Below, piece after piece: positions 1,063 through 42,208 of a DNA stretch of 64,000 bases. Source of the stretch: Escherichia phage phiWec187; the sequence record LC739536.1; one strand, 5' to 3'. Under the pieces are notes generated by a model that worked only from the letters and a program-made list of their open reading frames with translations, was not told where the DNA came from and made no database searches. Position 1 is the stretch's first letter; every line of letters starts with the position of its first letter. Both the position numbers and the translations under genes were made by a program.

Positions 1063-2147
1063 TAAAAGTCTAACTCCTCGTCATCACTTACATCTTTATT
1101 TGCTGAATTCAGTTTGTAAGCTGTAATTTGGATCTCCTGTGCTGCTGCTTGAATTTGATCTGGATTTAACCAAACATCCATCCAAGGCAGTGGACTTTTC
1201 TTCGGTGCACGGAATTTGTGTTTCATTTTCAGTCTGCGATAGATAGGCGCAGCATTGAAGTAAACCCAAAGTTTGAACAACTCTGCGTTACCACCAACGA
1301 TAATCCTTCCTTCACTAAACAGATAGTCACACCAATCTTCCTCTTGTCCAACTACCGTGTCAAGAATTTCTGTCAGAACGTAGATATTATCTTCGTATAC
1401 TTTTCTCCAGACAGGATCTTTCAGCAGTGCATCAATAATAGCATAATCCATTTTAACGTGCAATAGTTCATCCAACATAATTTTTTGAATGAGTTTAGCT
1501 GCACCTACAAACAGTTGCTGCTCTGCTAAGGCAAATGTTGCAGCAAAAGATGATATGAATTGAATGCCTTCCAGACCGATAAGTGCAATCATTCCTTTCA
1601 GAATCAGTAGACGAAGGTTATCATCCTTCTCAATCAGACCTAGAGCATACTTATGCCCTGCCTCTGCCAGATCACTCATTATCTCTTCAACTATACCCAT
1701 CCTCTGGAAGATTCTTTCGTTCTCCATAATCTGATCGATAACTTCATTTGGATTAGGGATACACTGACGAATAATTTCAGAATATGTCAAAGCGTGTAAA
1801 ACTTCCATTTCTGATTGCTTCATCATCATTGCACATGCTTCGTTGTTGCTTAAAAATGGTGCAAACAAAGTGATAATTGATTTAGCAAGTGAGTCATTTT
1901 CCCATTGGAAAGATAGGTTTTTGATCATAACATCATAGTTGCTTTTAGAACAAGCTACGAAATCTTTTCGTGTCTGATCTAAGTTTACTTCGTTTTCATC
2001 CCAATCTTGCTGTTTTTGTAGTTTGTACAGACGATGCATTTCTGGGTATGTTACATTAATAGAATCAAAAATACCTAACTGTTCTCCCAAAAATACAGGG
2101 TAGAAACCTTCTTTGTAAGTGTCGTTGTATAAATTAATCGCTGCCAT
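1062..2147 (-). CDS. nrdB: ribonucleotide reductase small subunit, class Ia
   Basis: 361 aa with R2-like length and acidic C-terminal tail ...DDEELDF; GGAGGA RBS upstream; adjacent to nrdA. Confidence 0.85.
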   Translation of the reverse strand: MAAINLYNDTYKEGFYPVFLGEQLGIFDSINVTYPEMHRLYKLQKQQDWDENEVNLDQTRKDFVACSKSNYDVMIKNLSFQWENDSLAKSIITLFAPFLSNNEACAMMMKQSEMEVLHALTYSEIIRQCIPNPNEVIDQIMENERIFQRMGIVEEIMSDLAEAGHKYALGLIEKDDNLRLLILKGMIALIGLEGIQFISSFAATFALAEQQLFVGAAKLIQKIMLDELLHVKMDYAIIDALLKDPVWRKVYEDNIYVLTEILDTVVGQEEDWCDYLFSEGRIIVGGNAELFKLWVYFNAAPIYRRLKMKHKFRAPKKSPLPWMDVWLNPDQIQAAAQEIQITAYKLNSANKDVSDDEELDF

Positions 2148-2469
2148 TTAAATCCTCCACAATATCACACATTGCTTTTATTGTATCAATGTGTTTTCTC
2201 TCCATACCATTCTCTATGTAAGCCTTCTCTAATGCGTTCCATACACTCTTTGTGAGTAGTACAGTAACCTCTCCGTCATATCTTGCCCTGGTTAAAGCAT
2301 ACCAGGTAGCTATGGGATCATTGGAAGCCCATATTTCAACACTGGAAAATTGAAAACCTGCAATATAATGACAACACCAATCGAATGTAAAATCTTTACT
2401 ATCTACCAGTGTATAATTTCCCCTGCGTCTTTGTGGTGTTGCCCCAGGTAATACAACTAATGTAGGCAT
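2134..2469 (-). CDS. hypothetical protein (start moved to internal ATG at 2469)
   Basis: Track start 2511 overlaps the nrdA stop and would translate a GC hairpin; ATG at 2467-2469 follows AAGGAGG. Confidence 0.45.
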   Translation of the reverse strand: MPTLVVLPGATPQRRRGNYTLVDSKDFTFDWCCHYIAGFQFSSVEIWASNDPIATWYALTRARYDGEVTVLLTKSVWNALEKAYIENGMERKHIDTIKAMCDIVEDLNGSD

Positions 2470-2482
2470 ATTCCTCCTTAAG

Positions 2483-2500
2483 AAAGGGGGGACAAAGCCC
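2483..2500 (-). terminator. GC hairpin between nrdA and next gene (attenuator or terminator)
   Basis: Minus strand GGGGGCTTTGTCCCCC then TTTCTT, then AAGGAGG and ATG. Confidence 0.4.
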
Positions 2501-2510
2501 CCTAGTTTCA

Positions 2511-4775
2511 TTACATTTTACAGGCGCTACACCCCTCGTCTTCAGAATCTTCTTGAGCGAGTGAGGATGCCGATTTTGTTCTGCTATTTAGATAGTACAA
2601 AGATTTACCACCAAGTTTTGCAAACTGAAGGATATATTGCATTTCTGATTTAATGGATAAACGACCACCTTCCATCTTAGAGTAGTCAATCCACTTATCA
2701 CATGATGCACCTTGATCTAAGAATTTAGTCAACAGGCCATATGCTTCAGCCATATCTTTATCTGGTGTATCCCAAGCCGATTGGTAAATATCTTTTAGTT
2801 TATCGTAGTCTGGCACAATAAACAGAACATTACCCTTTTGGCTTTGTTTATAAACTATAGTATCACGTACAGGATACACAGAGTTAGTCGTATTACTTAC
2901 AAGACTACTGGACTCATTTGGAGCAATAGCTGCTAATACGCTATTTCGGATACCACCTTGTGCAATGATATCTTGTCGTAAACCTTCCCAATCCATTTTA
3001 AGTTTAAAATTGCCAATATCGTCTACAGCTTTAGCGTAGGTATCAATAGGCAACCATCCTTCAGGCCATTTGGTTTTATGCATCCATTCTGCATTACCTT
3101 TCTCTTTTGCCAAACGAAGAGAAGCTCTTGCTAACCAATAATAATGTCTTTCTGCTAATTCGTGAATTAGTTTTTTGCCGTAAGGATCTGAATAAGTAAC
3201 AAAATTACTTGCCAGATAATGTGCAAGGTTTGTAATACCTACACCGATAGACCTACGTGCTTTAGCAGTGATTTCGTTATGTTTAAACGGATACTGCATT
3301 GTTTCAATAACATTATCAATAGTCAGAACGGTATAATATGCAACATCTTCATATTCTTCTGGTGTAACACGACCAGCTACAATAGAAGACAGGAAGCATA
3401 ATGCCAATTCTTGATCTTCTGTATTCTCACCTGTGAAAAGATCAGTCATATTGTGAAATGCTTTCGTAGGTAAGAAAATTTCTTGGCACAAGTTTGACTG
3501 GTAAATAACATCCTTAAACGGAGTATGCTTATTAGCATTATCCGCAAAGAACATATAAATACGTCCTGTCTCTGCTCTTTGTGTAATAATTTCTGCCAGA
3601 AGATCTCGTGCTTTTACAAACTTCTTCTTAATTCGTTTGCGACTAACTTTTTCATATACTTCTTCAAACTCTTCCTCGCTTTTATAAAGCGCCTCATAGA
3701 GTTCTGGTGCTTCGTCATAACTGACTAGCATCCAATCTTTACCTTTTGCTGCACGGCGCAGGAAAGCATTGTTTACTACAATAGAGTAATCAAGTTTATC
3801 TACTCGTTTTTCACTAACAGTAGTTGGGTTTTTCAAACGTACCAGATCTTCAAAATCAGGTTCTAGTATTGTAAACGTTACTGTTGCACTTCCACCACGA
3901 CTTGCTTGTTTTGATGCTCCAACACTTGTCTCCATCCATTTCAGATATGGTAAAAGACCACCGTGAACGATACGGTTGTTCTTAACACCTTGTCCTGTGG
4001 CACGGGTTTGAAGGTTAACACCAATACCTGCATTATTCAATGTATATTCATGCGCAAGATAGTTAGCAATTGCTAAAGATTCTGCTGTATCGTCTGCTCT
4101 AAACAGACAACAAGAAGCACTACCTTTAATCTTAGTACGCAAAGTTGTTAAATAAGGCGATGGTAAATTAATCTTAAGATCACTTACGTAGGTATATAGA
4201 CGTTTAATGTCTTCTACTCTGCGGTCTTTTGGTTGGATTTCCATTACCTTCATTGCTACACCAATGAATAAAAACTGTGGTGATTCAAAAACAACATCAT
4301 TGATCGCATCTTTCACAAGATACTTATCAACCATCTGGCGCAGTACGGAATAACCATAAGTTAGGTTTTTATCGTGATTGACAATCTTACCAATCTCAAT
4401 AATTTCTTCTTCTGTATAATCCATTTTCCCCCAATAGCCTTTACTTACAGACATATTGTAGAAATCCAGGAGGGAGGGGATATTGTGATATCCCCCATGA
4501 GCCTGTTTATAGATCATACCAAGAAGTAACCGACCTGCCATATCACTATATGCCTGATCTTTCTTATCAATACATGCTGCTATCATAGCTTTATGTAAAT
4601 CACGAGTAGGCACACCGTCGTAACAACGTTTAACAGCTTCGAGTTCGATTTCAGACCAATTTAATTTACCAGCAGCAAACTCTGACCATTTACGAAGTTT
4701 TTCTGGATTAAATTCTTCTTTCTTGCCGTTTGTTTTTGTTACATAACGGATAGATTTGCTTAGATACTGAGTCAC
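2511..4775 (-). CDS. nrdA: ribonucleotide reductase large subunit, class Ia
   Basis: 754 aa; N-terminal ATP-cone-like segment; NxCxE-like NLCQEI; C-terminal cysteine pair CSACKM. Confidence 0.9.
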   Translation of the reverse strand: MTQYLSKSIRYVTKTNGKKEEFNPEKLRKWSEFAAGKLNWSEIELEAVKRCYDGVPTRDLHKAMIAACIDKKDQAYSDMAGRLLLGMIYKQAHGGYHNIPSLLDFYNMSVSKGYWGKMDYTEEEIIEIGKIVNHDKNLTYGYSVLRQMVDKYLVKDAINDVVFESPQFLFIGVAMKVMEIQPKDRRVEDIKRLYTYVSDLKINLPSPYLTTLRTKIKGSASCCLFRADDTAESLAIANYLAHEYTLNNAGIGVNLQTRATGQGVKNNRIVHGGLLPYLKWMETSVGASKQASRGGSATVTFTILEPDFEDLVRLKNPTTVSEKRVDKLDYSIVVNNAFLRRAAKGKDWMLVSYDEAPELYEALYKSEEEFEEVYEKVSRKRIKKKFVKARDLLAEIITQRAETGRIYMFFADNANKHTPFKDVIYQSNLCQEIFLPTKAFHNMTDLFTGENTEDQELALCFLSSIVAGRVTPEEYEDVAYYTVLTIDNVIETMQYPFKHNEITAKARRSIGVGITNLAHYLASNFVTYSDPYGKKLIHELAERHYYWLARASLRLAKEKGNAEWMHKTKWPEGWLPIDTYAKAVDDIGNFKLKMDWEGLRQDIIAQGGIRNSVLAAIAPNESSSLVSNTTNSVYPVRDTIVYKQSQKGNVLFIVPDYDKLKDIYQSAWDTPDKDMAEAYGLLTKFLDQGASCDKWIDYSKMEGGRLSIKSEMQYILQFAKLGGKSLYYLNSRTKSASSLAQEDSEDEGCSACKM

Positions 4776-37463: not shown

Positions 37464-38870
37464 ATGGCAACTTTTCGTGATAAGGTAGTTTCCGTAACCC
37501 TTACCTACGGTGCTACTTCAATTAGTGAAACACAGTTTGATATCCCTCTAATTCTTACAGGGCATAACGTTACTGGCAATCTTGTAGATTATTTCACTTC
37601 TTCAGACGCACTTCTGCAAGCAGGTTTTGGCACTGCCGATCCAGCTTATAAAATGGCAAAACTACTATTTGACGGTCTGTTCGCACCAGAACAAGTTATC
37701 GTCGGTAAGCGTGATGTTTCTAAAACGACTCTAACTCCAGTAGTTGAAGATAGTGCAACTTACGTTATCACTATTAAAGCAAATTCAAAAAGCAAGGACT
37801 TCAAGTTTGTTGCCGATGATACTGCAACTGCTCAAGAGATTGTTGTTGGTTTAACAGAAATGATCAACGCAGACGTAGTGTATAAAGAATTTTTCACTGT
37901 GTCAAACGATGGTAGTGTTATCACTGTAACCCCAGTTGCAGGTAAATACGCTACTATGGATAGTTCAGGATTCACAACTAACGTAGAATATGCAAATGAT
38001 ATCTTAGAAGATATTGCTAAAATTGCAGACTATGAAAACAGTTGGTTCTGGTTACTATCTGATTCTCACGCAGAACAAGATATTATCGATCTAGCAGGTT
38101 ATGTAGAAGAGCACGATAAAGTGTACTTCTTCTCTACCTCGCAACCAGGTGTTCTAACTAAAGAAGAAGATAACATTCTAGAACGCTTAGGTGATATGGG
38201 CTACAATAACACTTGTATGGCATTGTGGATGACTAACGCTGATACAGTGTTCCCAGAAGCTGCTGTAGTTGGTTCTATCTGCTCTGCAACACCAGGTACT
38301 ACTACCTTGCATGGTAAAACCCTTGTTGGTATCGAGATTGAAAAACTTGGTCAGACAGCAGAAAACTTTATCGTTCAACAGAATGGTAATATTTACCGTA
38401 AAGAACACGGTGTTCTGTTCTACCGTGATGGCTTCATGGTAAGTGGTTTCTATGTTGACTATGTGGTACACGCTCTGTGGTTCAAAGCTCGCGTAGAAGA
38501 ATCTCTGTTCGCTCTATTCAAACAGCAATCTATGCTTGGTAGTGGTGTTAGAGCAACTTCTGCTGGTCTTGCTTTGATTCGTCAGGCTGTTACTGCAAAC
38601 CCAATCCAAGTAGGTATTAACAATGGTTCTATTGCCAATGAGGTAGTAACTTCAGAGGAAACAGGACTTCTGGTAAGCCTTAAACCTACTATCTATATCC
38701 CATCTCGTGCAGATATGACTGATGCTCAAATCAATGCACGTTTGGTTGATGGTATGGTTATTGAATACGTATATGCTGGATTCTTCCACTATGTTAAAGT
38801 GCAGGTAAACGTTCTGACGAACCGCACTGCAAATAGCCAGAATTCCAATAGCTCTACTGTATCTTCATAA
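37464..38870 (+). CDS. putative tail sheath protein
   Basis: 468 aa in sheath, tube, chaperone, tape-measure order; hairpin downstream. Confidence 0.45.
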   Translation: MATFRDKVVSVTLTYGATSISETQFDIPLILTGHNVTGNLVDYFTSSDALLQAGFGTADPAYKMAKLLFDGLFAPEQVIVGKRDVSKTTLTPVVEDSATYVITIKANSKSKDFKFVADDTATAQEIVVGLTEMINADVVYKEFFTVSNDGSVITVTPVAGKYATMDSSGFTTNVEYANDILEDIAKIADYENSWFWLLSDSHAEQDIIDLAGYVEEHDKVYFFSTSQPGVLTKEEDNILERLGDMGYNNTCMALWMTNADTVFPEAAVVGSICSATPGTTTLHGKTLVGIEIEKLGQTAENFIVQQNGNIYRKEHGVLFYRDGFMVSGFYVDYVVHALWFKARVEESLFALFKQQSMLGSGVRATSAGLALIRQAVTANPIQVGINNGSIANEVVTSEETGLLVSLKPTIYIPSRADMTDAQINARLVDGMVIEYVYAGFFHYVKVQVNVLTNRTANSQNSNSSTVSS

Positions 38871-38928: not shown

Positions 38929-39408
38929 TTGGATAAAATGCTTACTGGCGTAATGGCCTATGATCCTTCTCAAGTAATCCTGTCTTTGGGTGGTTGGGAA
39001 CCTTGGGGTTTCGCCGCAGATACCAAAATTGTTATTAACAAAACTAACGATATCATCAACCCATATTCAGGTACTGATGGTGACGTTTCCTTGGCTCTTA
39101 GTCGTAACCGTTTAGGTACGCTAACAATGTCACTGCAACGTACTTCCCCAGCAAACGAAGTTCTTGCTGCTTATGCACAAACGATGTATTCTACTCGTCA
39201 AGTAGCATTTAGCGTATATCTAGAAGACCCTCGCGGATATTATATCAGCACAATTGGTTGGATTCAAAGCCAACCGGACGACACTATTGGTGAAACTATT
39301 CAAGAAAACCAATGGGTAATTGGTCTTAAAGATGCAAGCCTACTTCGTTCTACTGTAGGTGTTGGTGTTAACGCACTTAACTCTATTAGTGCTCTAACTA
39401 TTCAGTAA
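38929..39408 (+). CDS. putative tail tube protein
   Basis: 159 aa after sheath-like gene; terminator at 39414-39440. Confidence 0.4.
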   Translation: MDKMLTGVMAYDPSQVILSLGGWEPWGFAADTKIVINKTNDIINPYSGTDGDVSLALSRNRLGTLTMSLQRTSPANEVLAAYAQTMYSTRQVAFSVYLEDPRGYYISTIGWIQSQPDDTIGETIQENQWVIGLKDASLLRSTVGVGVNALNSISALTIQ

Positions 39409-39413
39409 CAAAA

Positions 39414-39440
39414 AGGGCAGAAATGCCCTTTATTTTTAAA
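39414..39440 (+). terminator. rho-independent terminator after tube-like gene
   Basis: AGGGCA-GAAA-TGCCCT then TTATTTTT. Confidence 0.5.
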
Positions 39441-39451
39441 GAGAGGAAATA

Positions 39452-39934
39452 ATGGAACAACAAAAAGATAATACTATTGCAAAATTTGCTCGTCCAGAAG
39501 TAATGGTTGAAATTGATCTGGATGAAGGACGCAGTGTAAAATTTAGAGTTCTCAAGTGGAGTCCAACTAAAGTTTTTGAAAGGATTCCAGAACTAGGTAG
39601 TGTACTAGCTGTTCCTATGACAATGTATAATACTGCTCTTATGTCAGCAGACGAAGATCTAGAAGCTCGTATTGCTATGGCGCTGATCCAATTATTCAGT
39701 GGTCTGGAAGAAAAAAACTTAGCCGCATTCTTACGTAAAATTTTAGATGAAGTTTACACAGAAGCAGGTCACAGTGTTTCCGATAATTTTGATGAATTGT
39801 TTTTTGCTCACCCAGAATTAGTTGTTGACTTAGCTGCAAAAGTTCTTGAGGTGAACTATGCCCCTTTTTTCAAACGAGGTTTCGGAAAACTGTTGACCCA
39901 ATTTCAAGGAATAGAGACTCTAGCGAAGAGTTAA
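39452..39934 (+). CDS. putative tail assembly chaperone (zero-frame product)
   Basis: 160 aa immediately upstream of tape measure; slippery heptamers near 3' end. Confidence 0.45.
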   Translation: MEQQKDNTIAKFARPEVMVEIDLDEGRSVKFRVLKWSPTKVFERIPELGSVLAVPMTMYNTALMSADEDLEARIAMALIQLFSGLEEKNLAAFLRKILDEVYTEAGHSVSDNFDELFFAHPELVVDLAAKVLEVNYAPFFKRGFGKLLTQFQGIETLAKS

Positions 39935-40209
39935 GTCCGGCAATTAAATCAGCAATTGAAATTGCCTCACAAACCCTTAGCTTGACATGGTATGAAGTAA
40001 TTCTTTGTAAGGTAATTAAGAATACCTCCGAAACCTTGTCCTCATTAGATAATTATGGTGTAGATTATCTACTTAAAATTTATGAATATTTAACATTTGA
40101 AGACTATGTACAAGATCTTCACGTTAAAGATGCGGATATTAAACGTGGTCAACAGAGAACAATAAGAGAACTGGATACGGCTATGAAAAAATTAATTCCA
40201 GATTCATAA
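39862..40209 (+). CDS. -1 frame extension of tail assembly chaperone
   Basis: -1 frame open from 39850 to 40209; track ORF 39982-40209 lacks an ATG and is read as the fusion C-terminus. Confidence 0.4.
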   Translation, partial: PFFQTRFRKTVDPISRNRDSSEELSPAIKSAIEIASQTLSLTWYEVILCKVIKNTSETLSSLDNYGVDYLLKIYEYLTFEDYVQDLHVKDADIKRGQQRTIRELDTAMKKLIPDS

Positions 40210-40228: not shown

Positions 40229-42208
40229 TTGTTAGAAATTAACACTTCCAAGATTAAGAATACAGTAACGTTTACTGTAGATAAAGACAGTTTAAAAAAT
40301 ACTAAAGACGCAATTAAAAACCTTAAAACTTTTACAGAATCTATTGAACCATCTTTAAATATGACTAAAATGCGTCGTCAATTTAAAAGTATGGAAGAGT
40401 ATGCTAAAAGAATAAGGCAGCAAATGTCAGGTCTTGGCGGCGGTAATCCTCCACCAATCCCACCAACCGGAGGTTCAAGCGGTGGTGGAAAAGGAGGAAG
40501 TGGTAGAGGTGGTTCTGGATCTTCTGGAGGACGTAAAACACCAGAGGAAAGAGCCGCAGAAGCCGCCGCTAAACGTGCAGCACTTGCTAATATGAAGCAA
40601 GACGATTTTAGTTTTAAAGCTATGCCTTTTACAAAAGCAGACAGCAGAATTCTAGAAAAATCTAAAAAGATTGTAGAAGAAACTGTTGAACTTTATCGTA
40701 AAGGTGTAATCACTAGCCAACAAATGAATAATACTTTGGCTAGACAGTTAGAAGAACTACGAAGATCTCATAAAGAGAAGAATGCACAACTTCTTGATGA
40801 AGAGAGAGCTAGACGCAGAATTGCCCGTCTGCAAGAAGCAGAAGATAAAAGAAGACAGCGTATCCGAGAAAGAGAAAGAAAGGATTTCGAACGTCAGCAA
40901 AGAAGAGAAAAAGAAGCAAGACAACGCGACAGACAACGTAAGCTATCTGGTGTAGGTAATGCTGCTATTGCTCTTAACCCTGCTATGTTTGGTGCTGCTC
41001 TTTTAGGTGCTGGTTTATATCAAGGTATAAGTAAAATTTCCGAAGGTATTACTGCATCGGCAGAGCGTGTTAATATGGTTAGTAGAGGTGGTCAGAACGT
41101 ACAGGTAAACCCTAACGCAATCTTAACAATGCGTACTTGGGGTGAAATGAACGGTGTAGACTCTGCTAGTATTATTAAAGCTATTGATAACCTTAAAGAC
41201 GTTCGTGAACGTTTAGGTAACACTGTACTCCACTCTGAATTTGATGAAAAATCAGGTAAATGGAAAGGTGGAGATAGTGGTATTAATGAAATCATGAACC
41301 AATTTGGTTGGACAAAAGAAGATGTTGCTAAATTCCAGAATAGACCTTTAGACTTTGTTCAAGCACTTGTTAATGAAGGTCAAAAAAGAGGAATGAACTC
41401 TGCGCAAATTGGTCGTCTGATGGAAAACCTTGGTGATGACTTAATGCACTACCAACGTATGTTTTTGGATAATGGTAAAGAGTTTATGGAAGTCCTGAGA
41501 ATGTTAAGTAATTCAGGTGCAACTCTTAACGACGAAAACATCCAAGCAGCACAAGATTTTGTTAAGCTAAGAGCACAAATTAATGCAGCAGGAGAAGGTT
41601 TTACCAATAACTTACTTGTAGGTTTTATGGATGGTTTAAAATCTGCACCAGATTTTGCAGAGAATATGAAAACTTTCCAAGAGGCTGCTCGTGGTCTTGG
41701 TGAAATGTCTGGTAGTATTGTAAGTAGCCTTGCAAAAATTGCAAAATATTTCCTTGATTTTTCAAATAAGGTTGGGCCAAAAAATAATACTAAAGAAGCT
41801 GTAAGAGATTATTATAATGGTACGCAGTATGGGTACGATGCACAGGTTGGTGGTAATCCTTGGGCTTATTGGCCTATTGGAAGAGATCAACATCTACCTG
41901 AAAATCAACCTTTAGGTAACTTTGATAGTAGTTTCTTAACTAGTGCCTTAAATCCAAGTGCTTCTAGTATTGGTTACAATAGACCTGATTTAACAGCATC
42001 TATGCTAACACCACGCCAAGGTGTTCCAGTACCGTTAAGTGTAGAGAATACAGTTGTTATCCCAGACAACGCATTCCAGATTAATGTTATTCCAGATGGT
42101 TATGGTTTTAGTAATTATCTAGATGCGACAATGAATACCAGTTTTAGTAACTTCTCACAAGGTTTAACTCTTCAGTTAAGCAGTGGACAATCTTCTACTG
42201 GTGGTTAA
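40229..42208 (+). CDS. tail tape measure protein
   Basis: 659 aa, TTG start after GGAGG; Gly-rich stretch and Arg/Glu/Lys coiled-coil; follows chaperone pair. Confidence 0.6.
   Translation: MLEINTSKIKNTVTFTVDKDSLKNTKDAIKNLKTFTESIEPSLNMTKMRRQFKSMEEYAKRIRQQMSGLGGGNPPPIPPTGGSSGGGKGGSGRGGSGSSGGRKTPEERAAEAAAKRAALANMKQDDFSFKAMPFTKADSRILEKSKKIVEETVELYRKGVITSQQMNNTLARQLEELRRSHKEKNAQLLDEERARRRIARLQEAEDKRRQRIRERERKDFERQQRREKEARQRDRQRKLSGVGNAAIALNPAMFGAALLGAGLYQGISKISEGITASAERVNMVSRGGQNVQVNPNAILTMRTWGEMNGVDSASIIKAIDNLKDVRERLGNTVLHSEFDEKSGKWKGGDSGINEIMNQFGWTKEDVAKFQNRPLDFVQALVNEGQKRGMNSAQIGRLMENLGDDLMHYQRMFLDNGKEFMEVLRMLSNSGATLNDENIQAAQDFVKLRAQINAAGEGFTNNLLVGFMDGLKSAPDFAENMKTFQEAARGLGEMSGSIVSSLAKIAKYFLDFSNKVGPKNNTKEAVRDYYNGTQYGYDAQVGGNPWAYWPIGRDQHLPENQPLGNFDSSFLTSALNPSASSIGYNRPDLTASMLTPRQGVPVPLSVENTVVIPDNAFQINVIPDGYGFSNYLDATMNTSFSNFSQGLTLQLSSGQSSTGG

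What the first reader, a model, noticed from the sequence alone, without database searches (positions are those of the whole stretch)
39850..40209. Programmed -1 frameshift site in the tail assembly chaperone gene
Near the 3' end of the 39452-39934 gene the sequence G-CCC-CTT-TTT-TCA contains overlapping slippery heptamers C CCT TTT (39862-39868) and T TTT TTC (39865-39871). The -1 frame is open from 39850 through 40209 and has no ATG of its own; the track ORF 39982-40209 starts at TTG. This matches the lambda G/GT arrangement immediately upstream of the tape-measure gene and predicts a fusion protein of roughly 250 aa.
Basis: partly seen in the sequence, partly recalled or inferred. Interest (0 to 1): 0.5.

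Follow-up and report, generated by a model that had tools for sequence, protein, structure and literature searches.

The report
Tail chaperone frameshift in phi92-like phage
A phi92-like E. coli phage almost certainly makes a long form of its tail assembly chaperone by a programmed backward ribosome slip on a conserved T TTT TTC sequence; this is the ordinary lambda G/GT strategy, and public records of these phages have not annotated it.

Summary
The window is a phi92-like myophage (Justusliebigvirus, 98-99% identical to phi92 and inny). The gene order is sheath, tube, tail assembly chaperone (TAC, 39452-39934, Pfam Phage_TAC_15), a -1 frame ORF open over 39850-40209, then the tape measure gene (40229-42208). 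The zero-frame reading is GCC CCT TTT TTC AAA, so C CCT TTT (39862-39868) and T TTT TTC (39865-39871) are both correctly phased. Either gives the same 252-aa fusion (...NYAPFF|QTRFRK...).

Comparative evidence carries the case. In 15 non-redundant GenBank lineages and 22 IMG/VR loci, down to about 30% amino-acid identity, the -1 ORF always overlaps the TAC 3' end. T TTT TTC is invariant, including its three synonymous positions. No start codon lies ahead of the conserved C-terminal domain. The stretch between the TAC stop and the annotated TTG evolves as coding sequence in the -1 frame. More distant relatives keep the arrangement but use other heptamers (G GGA AAG, A AAT TTT, G GTT TTT).

There is no conserved 3' RNA structure. 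An SD-like GAGGTGA lies 10 nt upstream and may stimulate the shift. This is a new member of a well-known kind, of low to moderate interest and mainly an annotation correction. No protein evidence exists.

The parts
37464..38870 (+). Tail sheath gene (phi92 gp130 homologue); context
   Evidence: Pfam DUF3383 and phrog_205 tail sheath. phi92 annotation. Cryo-EM identification.
38929..39408 (+). Tail tube gene (phi92 gp131 homologue); context
   Evidence: Pfam KPP10_Orf10/DUF3277. Identified as the tube in the phi92 cryo-EM paper.
39412..39440 (+). Terminator-like hairpin plus T tract between the tube gene and the chaperone gene. It may reduce transcription into the chaperone and tape measure genes.
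   Evidence: Pattern scan only. Function is inferred.
39452..39934 (+). Tail assembly chaperone gene, short (zero-frame) product of 160 aa (TAC-N, gpG-like; phi92 gp132)
39848..39854 (+). SD-like GAGGTGA, a candidate 5' stimulator, 10 nt upstream of T TTT TTC
   Evidence: Duplex with the 16S 3' end is -9.9 kcal/mol, within the top 0.84% of 20-nt windows over 30-62 kb. The spacing falls in the 9-14 nt range reported for -1 stimulation (PMC5009743). It is present in all Stephanstirmvirinae-like loci and in Vequinta-, Avuna- and Felixounavirus, and is weak or absent in other lineages. Function is inferred.
39862..39868 (+). Slippery heptamer C CCT TTT (lineage-specific, auxiliary)
   Evidence: In phase. 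Present in all Stephanstirmvirinae-like loci, where the preceding codon is GCC, GGC or TCC and always ends in C. C_CC.U_UU.U is among the efficient motifs in E. coli (PMC4066793).
39865..39871 (+). Slippery heptamer T TTT TTC (the conserved shift site)
   Evidence: In phase. Invariant in 15 of 15 lineages, including three synonymous positions, in 22 of 22 IMG/VR loci and in Felixounavirus Alf5. It is the only FF dipeptide in the window encoded as T TTT TTC. The H_HH.U_UU.Y class is the most efficient in E. coli.
39871..40209 (+). -1 frame extension: 112 codons plus stop. Base 39871 is read twice. Fusion = join(39452..39871, 39871..40209), 252 aa. The conserved C-terminal 'T-like' domain starts at about 39931. 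The region includes the ORF annotated as phi92 gp133 (39982-40209).
   Evidence: Translation. phrog_16039. There is no start codon before the conserved domain. pN/pS is 0.44 in the -1 frame over 39934-39981, against 1.0-1.4 in the other two frames.
40229..42208 (+). Tape measure gene (TTG start, GGAGG 7 nt upstream; phi92 gp134); context
   Evidence: phrog_16051. phi92 annotation. Cryo-EM.

Best explanation
This is a programmed -1 ribosomal frameshift in the tail assembly chaperone gene of a phi92-like myophage.

Most ribosomes read 39452-39934 and release a 160-aa chaperone (TAC-N). A minority slip back one base when tRNA-Phe occupies TTT/TTC of T TTT TTC (39865-39871), or when tRNA-Pro and tRNA-Phe occupy C CCT TTT (39862-39868). 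These ribosomes continue in the -1 frame to TAA at 40207-40209. The product is a 252-aa fusion (TAC-NC) in which the chaperone fold is joined through a short linker to a conserved, roughly 90-aa helical domain.

By analogy with lambda gpG/gpGT, the shared N-terminal part would coat the tape measure protein (gp134). The frameshift-only C-terminal domain would recruit tube protein (gp131), so that the tube polymerises around the tape measure. The fixed slip frequency would set the G:GT ratio, and neither product would stay in the virion.

The SD-like GAGGTGA 10 nt upstream may raise the slip rate. No 3' RNA structure appears to be involved.

Shown: anatomy, phase, family membership and conservation. 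Inferred: that the fusion is made, its ratio, its binding partners and the role of the SD-like element.
For: - Anatomy and phase.
- Arrangement: in 17 GenBank loci covering Stephanstirmvirinae, six named Vequintavirinae genera plus two Vequintavirinae phages without an assigned genus (SSBI34, ABPH49), and an Aeromonas phage, the -1 ORF of 117-136 codons always overlaps the TAC 3' end by 85-148 nt.
- Site conservation: T TTT TTC is invariant in 15 of 15 non-redundant lineages. The preceding amino acid varies (Pro, Cys, Ser) but its third base is always T. The three synonymous positions inside the heptamer are 100% conserved, against 27-67% at most flanking third positions. The same holds in 22 of 22 IMG/VR loci.
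- No independent start: no ATG, GTG or TTG lies between the slip site and codon 31-86 of the -1 ORF. Hena1 and KB57 have none for more than 80 codons. The first candidates differ in position between lineages and fall inside the conserved domain. No SD precedes TTG 39982.
- Coding signature: 39934-39981, upstream of that TTG, has pN/pS 0.44 in the -1 frame, similar to 0.39 further downstream, and 1.0-1.4 in the other frames.
- Slip-site turnover in more distant relatives: Felixounavirus has the same T TTT TTC, Barbavirus has G GGA AAG, Vibrio qdvp001 has A AAT TTT, and Nankoku- and Pakpunavirus have G GTT TTT.
- Avoidance elsewhere: 20 of 24 Phe-Phe dipeptides in the window start with TTC, although TTT is the commoner codon.
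- Motif efficiency: both heptamers belong to the most efficient class measured in E. coli (PMC4066793).
- Domain logic: the slip site sits at the end of the predicted fold; residues 141-160 have pLDDT below 50.
- Virion composition: gp132 and gp133 are not among the phi92 virion proteins resolved by cryo-EM.
- Published parallels: a conserved -1 PRF with a poly-T motif has been argued for TAC genes of related Vandenendeviridae and Andersonviridae (PMC12846349), and a frameshift was annotated in phage Moogle.
Against: - There is no direct evidence for the fusion protein.
- No GenBank record inspected (about 25) annotates a joined CDS. No protein in the 5.8-billion-sequence collection covers both halves; maximum coverage is 60%.
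- No stimulatory 3' structure: z-score -0.39 and no consensus pairs. Efficiency may therefore be low.
- The invariant Phe-Phe is also constrained as protein, so part of the nucleotide conservation reflects the amino-acid sequence.
- In the overlap itself the -1 frame shows no purifying selection (pN/pS 1.27); that stretch behaves as a linker.
- The SD-like element is missing in several lineages.
- The single-sequence model of the -1 domain was uninformative (pLDDT 44.5).
Confidence: 0.88

Rival explanations
1. Transcriptional slippage instead of ribosomal slippage. RNA polymerase would insert one extra U while copying the T6 run (39865-39870). A fraction of mRNAs would then carry the chaperone and the downstream ORF in one frame and yield the same 252-aa protein.
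For: - The conserved core is a homopolymeric T6 run.
- U and A runs are known slippage sites and are avoided in E. coli genes in all frames (PMC4066793).
- The title of Vladimirov et al. 2022, cited in PMC12846349, points to a non-translational mechanism for T4-like TAC genes. That paper was not held, so I could not read it.
- The protein product would be identical, so nothing computed here separates the two mechanisms directly.
Against: - From general knowledge, six T is shorter than the runs of roughly 8-9 or more that give efficient slippage by bacterial RNA polymerase.
- The run is always exactly T6 followed by C and never drifts longer, across 37 loci.
- More distant relatives keep the -1 arrangement with non-homopolymeric tandem-slippage heptamers: G GGA AAG in Barbavirus and A AAT TTT in Vibrio qdvp001. 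These fit ribosomal slippage only.
- Stephanstirmvirinae add a second phased heptamer, C CCT TTT, and a correctly spaced SD-like element. Both matter only to ribosomes.
Confidence: 0.06
2. Two separate genes. The downstream ORF (phi92 gp133) would be translated independently from TTG 39982 as a 75-aa protein, as currently annotated, and the heptamers would be incidental.
For: - phi92 and several relatives annotate a separate small CDS.
- One record (Mangalyan) even marks a ribosome-binding site for it.
- No fusion protein is on record.
Against: - No SD precedes TTG 39982; the upstream sequence is GCCTCACAAACCCTTAGC. The phi92 record annotates an RBS for its neighbours but none for gp133.
- Annotated starts differ between records (43-88 aa), and five records annotate no gene there at all.
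- The first possible start lies anywhere from codon 31 to codon 86 and would truncate the conserved domain.
- The sequence upstream of the TTG is under purifying selection in the -1 frame.
- The ORF is always open back into the chaperone gene, across variable-length linkers, in all loci.
Confidence: 0.04
3. Chance coincidence. The heptamer would be an ordinary Phe-Phe codon pair and the long -1 ORF an accident, with no frameshift product of any use.
For: About 0.12 heptamers are expected in the overlap by chance, so a single genome is not compelling.
Against: - The open -1 frame, the heptamer and its synonymous positions are conserved across lineages whose synonymous sites are otherwise saturated.
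- The slip site is replaced by other heptamers in more distant relatives.
- T runs are avoided at other Phe-Phe sites.
Confidence: 0.02

Closest known systems
Bacteriophage lambda gpG/gpGT tail assembly chaperone -1 frameshift (Levin et al. 1993; Xu et al. 2004, 2013, 2014, as summarised in PMC5009743)
   Same: - Two overlapping ORFs lie directly upstream of the tape measure gene.
- The second ORF is in the -1 frame and has no initiation signals of its own.
[quoted passage not shown]
- No conserved 3' RNA structure was found here; from my recollection of Levin et al. 1993, lambda needs none either.
- Neither product is expected in the virion.
   Different: - There is no detectable sequence similarity to gpG or gpT; the Pfam family here is Phage_TAC_15.
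- The heptamer is T TTT TTC (tRNA-Phe) rather than G GGA AAG (tRNA-Lys).
- The phage has a contractile tail, so the partner is a tube protein inside a sheath.
- An overlapping second heptamer and an SD-like 5' element are present.
- The efficiency is unknown (about 1:30 in lambda).
Proposed -1 PRF in TAC genes of Vandenendeviridae (Pakpunavirus and others) and Andersonviridae (FelixO1- and Moogle-like), PMC12846349 and PMC4319497
   Same: - The virion module is homologous (DUF3383 sheath, DUF3277/KPP10_Orf10 tube, TAC, -1 ORF, TMP).
- The slip site sits at the same conserved N-(F/Y)-G-x-(F/V)-F motif and is poly-T.
- Felixounavirus Alf5 has the identical T TTT TTC.
- The evidence is likewise comparative only.
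   Different: - That paper reports an invariant GTTTTT motif. The window has CCTTTTTTC with no G, and Pakpuna- and Nankokuvirus have G GTT TTT rather than a canonical heptamer.
- In the passages I retrieved, the paper's TAC-locus analysis covers only Vandenendeviridae and Andersonviridae. It mentions Stephanstirmvirinae and Vequintavirinae elsewhere, but I did not see their TAC loci analysed there.
E. coli dnaX and IS element -1 frameshift signals with a 5' Shine-Dalgarno-like stimulator
   Same: An SD-like sequence (GAGGTGA, -9.9 kcal/mol) lies 10 nt 5' of the heptamer. This is within the 9-14 nt range that stimulates -1 shifting (PMC5009743). U_UU.U_UU.C is also used by some IS elements.
   Different: There is no 3' stem-loop or pseudoknot. 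The SD-like element is not conserved in all lineages, and it overlaps conserved Leu-Glu-Val codons, so its role is unproven.
Phage T7 gene 10A/10B -1 frameshift (named in PMC12846349; the G GUU UUC site is recalled from memory)
   Same: tRNA-Phe slips on a U-rich site in an E. coli phage structural gene and produces a minor C-terminally extended product.
   Different: The gene is different (capsid), and the T7 site is non-canonical. This is a resemblance only.

Membership tests
G/GT-type tail assembly chaperone with programmed -1 frameshift | Pair of overlapping ORFs located between the major tail/tube gene and the tape measure gene | tested here: met
   The order is tube 38929-39408, TAC 39452-39934, -1 ORF to 40209, TMP 40229-42208. 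Roles of gp131 and gp134 are confirmed by cryo-EM.
G/GT-type tail assembly chaperone with programmed -1 frameshift | Upstream ORF belongs to a tail assembly chaperone family or fold | tested here: met
G/GT-type tail assembly chaperone with programmed -1 frameshift | Downstream ORF in the -1 frame, overlapping the 3' end of the first ORF and lacking its own start codon and SD | tested here: met
   The overlap is 85 nt. There is no ATG, GTG or TTG before 39982 and no SD there. The same holds in all relatives.
G/GT-type tail assembly chaperone with programmed -1 frameshift | Slippery X XXY YYZ heptamer in zero-frame phase inside the overlap | tested here: met
   C CCT TTT at 39862-39868 and T TTT TTC at 39865-39871. 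Both are efficient in E. coli.
G/GT-type tail assembly chaperone with programmed -1 frameshift | Arrangement and slip site conserved among divergent relatives | tested here: met
   15 lineages plus 22 IMG/VR loci plus 5 more distant genera. The -1 frame shows a coding signature upstream of any start.
G/GT-type tail assembly chaperone with programmed -1 frameshift | Fusion protein actually made, at a low fixed ratio to the short product | not testable with these tools
   No proteomic data were found for gp132 or gp133.
G/GT-type tail assembly chaperone with programmed -1 frameshift | Both products required for tail assembly and absent from mature virions | not testable with these tools
   Indirect only: gp132 and gp133 are not among the proteins identified in the phi92 virion structure.
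dnaX-type 5' SD-stimulated -1 frameshift signal | Sequence complementary to the 16S 3' end, 9-14 nt upstream of the shift site | tested here: met
   GAGGTGA at 39848-39854, -9.9 kcal/mol, top 0.84% of windows, 10-nt spacer. The spacing rule is from PMC5009743.
dnaX-type 5' SD-stimulated -1 frameshift signal | Stimulator conserved wherever the shift site is conserved | tested here: not met
   The element is strong in Stephanstirmvirinae and in Vequinta-, Avuna- and Felixounavirus. It is weak or absent in Certrevirus, SSBI34, KB57 and the Aeromonas phage.
dnaX-type 5' SD-stimulated -1 frameshift signal | 3' stem-loop stimulator | tested here: not met
   The fold z-score is -0.39. RNAalifold predicts no consensus pairs in 14 sequences. 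No Rfam family reaches its threshold.
Transcriptional slippage recoding site | Long homopolymeric A or T run (about 8-9 or more; threshold taken from general knowledge) | tested here: not met
   The run is exactly T6 in all loci. More distant relatives use non-homopolymeric heptamers.

The most novel reading that the evidence does not exclude
The Stephanstirmvirinae site may be a compound, structure-free signal: two overlapping in-phase heptamers (C CCT TTT TTC) plus a dnaX-like SD element at the optimal 10-nt spacing. Such a signal could give an unusually high or tunable G:GT ratio for a myophage. Frameshifted ribosomes terminate only 19 nt before the tape measure TTG start, whereas unshifted ones stop about 295 nt upstream. 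Tape measure translation could therefore be coupled partly to the frameshift, linking the amount of tape measure to the amount of the long chaperone.
Probability: 0.12. Interest if true: 0.5.

Novelty: new member of a known kind. Interest (0 to 1): 0.25.

Why it matters
The main value is correct annotation. In the roughly 25 GenBank records of phi92-, phAPEC8-, rV5- and PVP-SE1-like phages that I inspected, out of 370 with a match, the region is either a free-standing 'hypothetical protein' with an arbitrary start or an empty gap. Many of these phages are candidates for therapy. The region should be a join() CDS encoding the long chaperone isoform.

The comparative series also gives a clean natural experiment on slip-site turnover within one homologous tail module: T TTT TTC, G GTT TTT, G GGA AAG and A AAT TTT all occur at essentially the same place. 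A single genome also shows clear avoidance of T runs at all other Phe-Phe sites.

None of this changes how tail assembly chaperones are understood.

Tried and rejected
- **3' stimulatory structure.** The single-sequence fold of 39872-39960 has z = -0.39. RNAalifold on 14 lineages predicts no pairs. Rfam shows only sub-threshold, irrelevant hits. The conserved GGTTTCG 9-12 nt downstream is better explained by dual coding: Gly-Phe in the zero frame and Arg-Phe-Arg in the -1 frame.
- **Fused proteins in databases.** I looked for an annotated or naturally fused full-length protein and found none; maximum query coverage is 60%.
- **Solved structures.** Sequence search of the PDB with the fusion found nothing meaningful.
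- **AlphaFold2.** The -1 ORF alone gave an unusable model, pLDDT 44.5.
- **Literature.** Searches for phi92, Stephanstirmvirinae or Vequintavirus together with frameshift found no description of this site. A raw-sequence literature search for TTTTTTC was uninformative. Vladimirov et al. 2022 on T4-like TACs was not held.
- **Other shift routes.** The +1 frame is closed after 7 codons. The other in-frame heptamer in the gene, A AAA AAC at 39712-39718, leads to a stop after 8 codons.

Full report
**Identity of the window and context.**
The 4.9-kb stretch around the finding is 98-99% identical to Escherichia phages inny, ECGD1, PHB05 and phi92 (Justusliebigvirus, Stephanstirmvirinae). The ORFs are:
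- tail sheath, 37464-38870 (DUF3383, phrog_205);
- tail tube, 38929-39408 (KPP10_Orf10/DUF3277);
- a 160-aa ORF, 39452-39934, matching Pfam Phage_TAC_15 (E = 1.6e-22) and phrog_3840 'tail assembly chaperone';
- a small ORF ending at 40209 (phrog_16039, unknown function);
- the tape measure gene, 40229-42208.

In the phi92 RefSeq record these are gp130 to gp134. gp132 is called 'tail assembly chaperone'. gp133 is a separate 75-aa CDS starting at TTG, and it is one of the few genes in that stretch with no annotated ribosome-binding site. A 2026 cryo-EM study of phi92 assigns gp130, gp131 and gp134 as sheath, tube and tape measure. It does not list gp132 or gp133 among the virion proteins and does not mention a chaperone or a frameshift (PMC13450770).

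**Check of the observation.**
The zero frame reads ...GAG GTG AAC TAT GCC CCT TTT TTC AAA CGA.... C CCT TTT (39862-39868) and T TTT TTC (39865-39871) are therefore both X XXY YYZ heptamers in the correct phase. The -1 frame is closed by TGA at 39847-39849 and is open over 39850-40209. The +1 frame closes after 7 codons. Within the -1 ORF the only start-type codons are TTG 39982, TTG 40036 and ATG 40183, and nothing SD-like precedes 39982. A slip at either heptamer gives the same protein...VLEVNYAPFF-QTRFRK..., of 140 + 112 = 252 aa, encoded as join(39452..39871, 39871..40209).

By chance about 0.12 in-frame heptamers are expected in the overlap (rate 0.0043 per codon). The single-genome observation is therefore suggestive and no more. 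It is, however, the only one of 52 long ORFs in the window that combines a long -1 extension with a heptamer in the overlap.

**Comparative test.**
A tblastn search with the predicted fusion found 370 phage records, nearly all with a two-piece match. I retrieved 17 loci. They span Justusliebigvirus, Phapecoctavirus, a Klebsiella Stephanstirmvirinae phage, Vequintavirus, Seunavirus, Avunavirus, Henunavirus, Certrevirus, Mydovirus, Salmonella SSBI34, Acinetobacter ABPH49 and Aeromonas 4L372XY, at about 30% amino-acid identity to the window.
- In every locus a -1 ORF of 117-136 codons overlaps the chaperone 3' end by 85-148 nt, and the +1 frame is closed.
- In every locus T TTT TTC is present in phase inside the overlap.
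- In an anchored alignment of 15 non-redundant lineages the heptamer is invariant. The preceding amino acid varies (Pro CCT, Cys TGT, Ser AGT) but always ends in T. The three synonymous positions within the heptamer are 15 of 15 identical, whereas most neighbouring third positions are 27-67% identical.
- Twenty-two further IMG/VR loci behave identically.
- C CCT TTT is confined to the Stephanstirmvirinae-like loci. There the preceding codon varies (GCC, GGC, TCC) but always ends in C, although C is the third base of only 13% of codons in this genome.

**No independent initiation.**
Aligned -1 translations show a conserved FF(Q/H/R)x(R)RFR stretch, then a variable and often Gly/Ser-rich linker, then a conserved C-terminal domain. 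In the window this domain begins with the helix LSPAIKSAIEIASQTLSLTWYEV, at about 39931, so it starts upstream of TTG 39982. The first possible start codon lies anywhere from codon 31 to codon 86 after the slip site, depending on lineage, and always inside the conserved domain. Hena1 and KB57 have none for more than 80 codons. GenBank annotators accordingly chose starts giving products of 38 to 88 aa, or annotated nothing.

Among 11 Stephanstirmvirinae-like sequences, the stretch between the chaperone stop and the TTG (39934-39981) has pN/pS 0.44 in the -1 frame. This resembles the 0.39 seen downstream of the TTG, and contrasts with 1.0-1.4 in the other two frames. That stretch is therefore translated, and only ribosomes arriving from upstream can do so. 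In the overlap itself the zero frame is the constrained one (0.44, against 1.27 for the -1 frame), which fits a loosely constrained linker.

**More distant relatives.**
I used the tube protein as an anchor and examined five more distant genera. All keep a -1 ORF of 100-126 codons overlapping the chaperone gene.
- Felixounavirus Alf5 has the identical T TTT TTC at the homologous N-F-G-S-F-F motif.
- Nankokuvirus and Pakpunavirus have G GTT TTT.
- Barbavirus has lambda's own G GGA AAG a few codons downstream.
- Vibrio qdvp001 has A AAT TTT.

Keeping the frame arrangement while the heptamer turns over is what selection for frameshifting predicts. This result also argues against RNA polymerase slippage as the general mechanism.

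**Within-genome control.**
In the window's plus-strand ORFs, 20 of 24 Phe-Phe dipeptides begin with TTC even though TTT is the commoner Phe codon (305 against 187). The chaperone site is the only T TTT TTC. T runs are avoided elsewhere and retained here.

**Stimulators.**
No 3' structure is supported. From my recollection of Levin et al. 1993, lambda G/GT needs none either. Upstream, GAGGTGA (39848-39854) pairs with the 16S 3' end at -9.9 kcal/mol, within the top 0.84% of windows, and lies 10 nt before T TTT TTC. SD-like stimulators of -1 shifting act at 9-14 nt (PMC5009743). The element is present in all Stephanstirmvirinae-like loci and in several other genera, but is weak or absent in Certrevirus, SSBI34, KB57 and the Aeromonas phage. 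It also overlaps conserved Leu-Glu-Val codons. It is a plausible lineage-specific enhancer, not a defining part of the signal.

**Heptamer efficiency.**
Systematic measurements in E. coli place H_HH.U_UU.Y among the most efficient heptamers. That class includes both U_UU.U_UU.C and C_CC.U_UU.U. Both are also listed among motifs that are under-represented in E. coli genes and shift above 0.1% without any stimulator (PMC4066793).

**Structure.**

**Mechanism and comparison.**
The best explanation is the standard one. A fixed minority of ribosomes slip -1 on T TTT TTC, and in this lineage also on C CCT TTT, and make a TAC-NC fusion. From the lambda work (PMC5009743), its N-terminal part would bind the tape measure protein alongside many copies of the short form, while the frameshift-only domain would recruit the tube protein. 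Both products would leave the finished tail.

Membership in the G/GT class is met on every sequence-level criterion. The biochemical criteria could not be tested. A December 2025 paper argued the same kind of site, described as a conserved GTTTTT, for the related Vandenendeviridae and Andersonviridae (PMC12846349), and phage Moogle was annotated with a frameshift in 2015. I found no paper or record describing it for phi92-like, phAPEC8-like or rV5-like phages.

**Rivals.**
- Transcriptional slippage on the T6 run would give the same protein and cannot be excluded computationally. It is disfavoured by the short, never-lengthened run, the non-homopolymeric heptamers in relatives, and the ribosome-specific accessories.
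- Independent initiation at TTG 39982 is contradicted by the missing SD, the non-conserved starts and the coding signature upstream.
- Chance is excluded by the conservation.

**Verdict.**
The finding is real, correctly located and correctly interpreted. It is an unannotated instance of a very well-known recoding event, so it is useful for annotation but not surprising.

Noticed in passing
window 39412-39440: A terminator-like hairpin (AAAGGGCAGAAATGCCCTTT) followed by a T tract lies in the 43-nt gap between the tube gene and the chaperone gene. It might lower transcription of the chaperone and tape measure genes relative to the sheath and tube genes.
   Followed up: no
window 39712-39718: A second in-phase heptamer, A AAA AAC, lies inside the chaperone gene. 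A -1 slip there would terminate after 8 codons (KKLSRILT*), so it is probably inconsequential.
   Followed up: partly
window, all plus-strand ORFs of at least 120 aa: Phe-Phe dipeptides avoid T runs. Of 24, 20 start with TTC although TTT is the commoner Phe codon (305 against 187). The chaperone site is the only T TTT TTC.
   Followed up: partly
window about 38415-38507 (phi92 NC_023693 66790-66882): The phi92 RefSeq record carries a 'Hypothetical tRNA' feature inside the sheath gene. ARAGORN finds no tRNA there in the window, so it is probably an annotation artefact.
   Followed up: yes
GenBank records MG0656xx (e.g. MG065639, MG065689, MG065682): About 23 records named 'Campylobacter phage', with host C. 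jejuni, are roughly 98% identical to phi92-like or rV5-like coliphages. They are possibly mislabelled or contaminant sequences.
   Followed up: no
L012 (phiTE) 1970-3070; L018 (Aeromonas 4L372XY) 1867-3024; L023 (Barbavirus) 3731-4408: In some relatives one or two extra genes sit between the -1 ORF and the tape measure gene. One of them, in Barbavirus, is a reverse-strand DNA-binding protein gene. Immediate adjacency to the tape measure gene is therefore not universal.
   Followed up: no
L005 (Escherichia phage V18) 1974-3074: The tape measure gene of V18 is annotated as two consecutive CDSs overlapping by 4 nt. This could be a sequencing frameshift or a genuine split; I did not examine it.
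   Followed up: no
window 39878-39884 and homologous positions in relatives: GGTTTCG, 9-12 nt downstream of the heptamer, is nearly invariant across lineages despite a one-codon indel. It encodes Gly-Phe in the zero frame and Arg-Phe-Arg in the -1 frame. The likely cause is dual-coding constraint, but a role in frameshifting, such as a spacer effect, was not excluded.
   Followed up: partly
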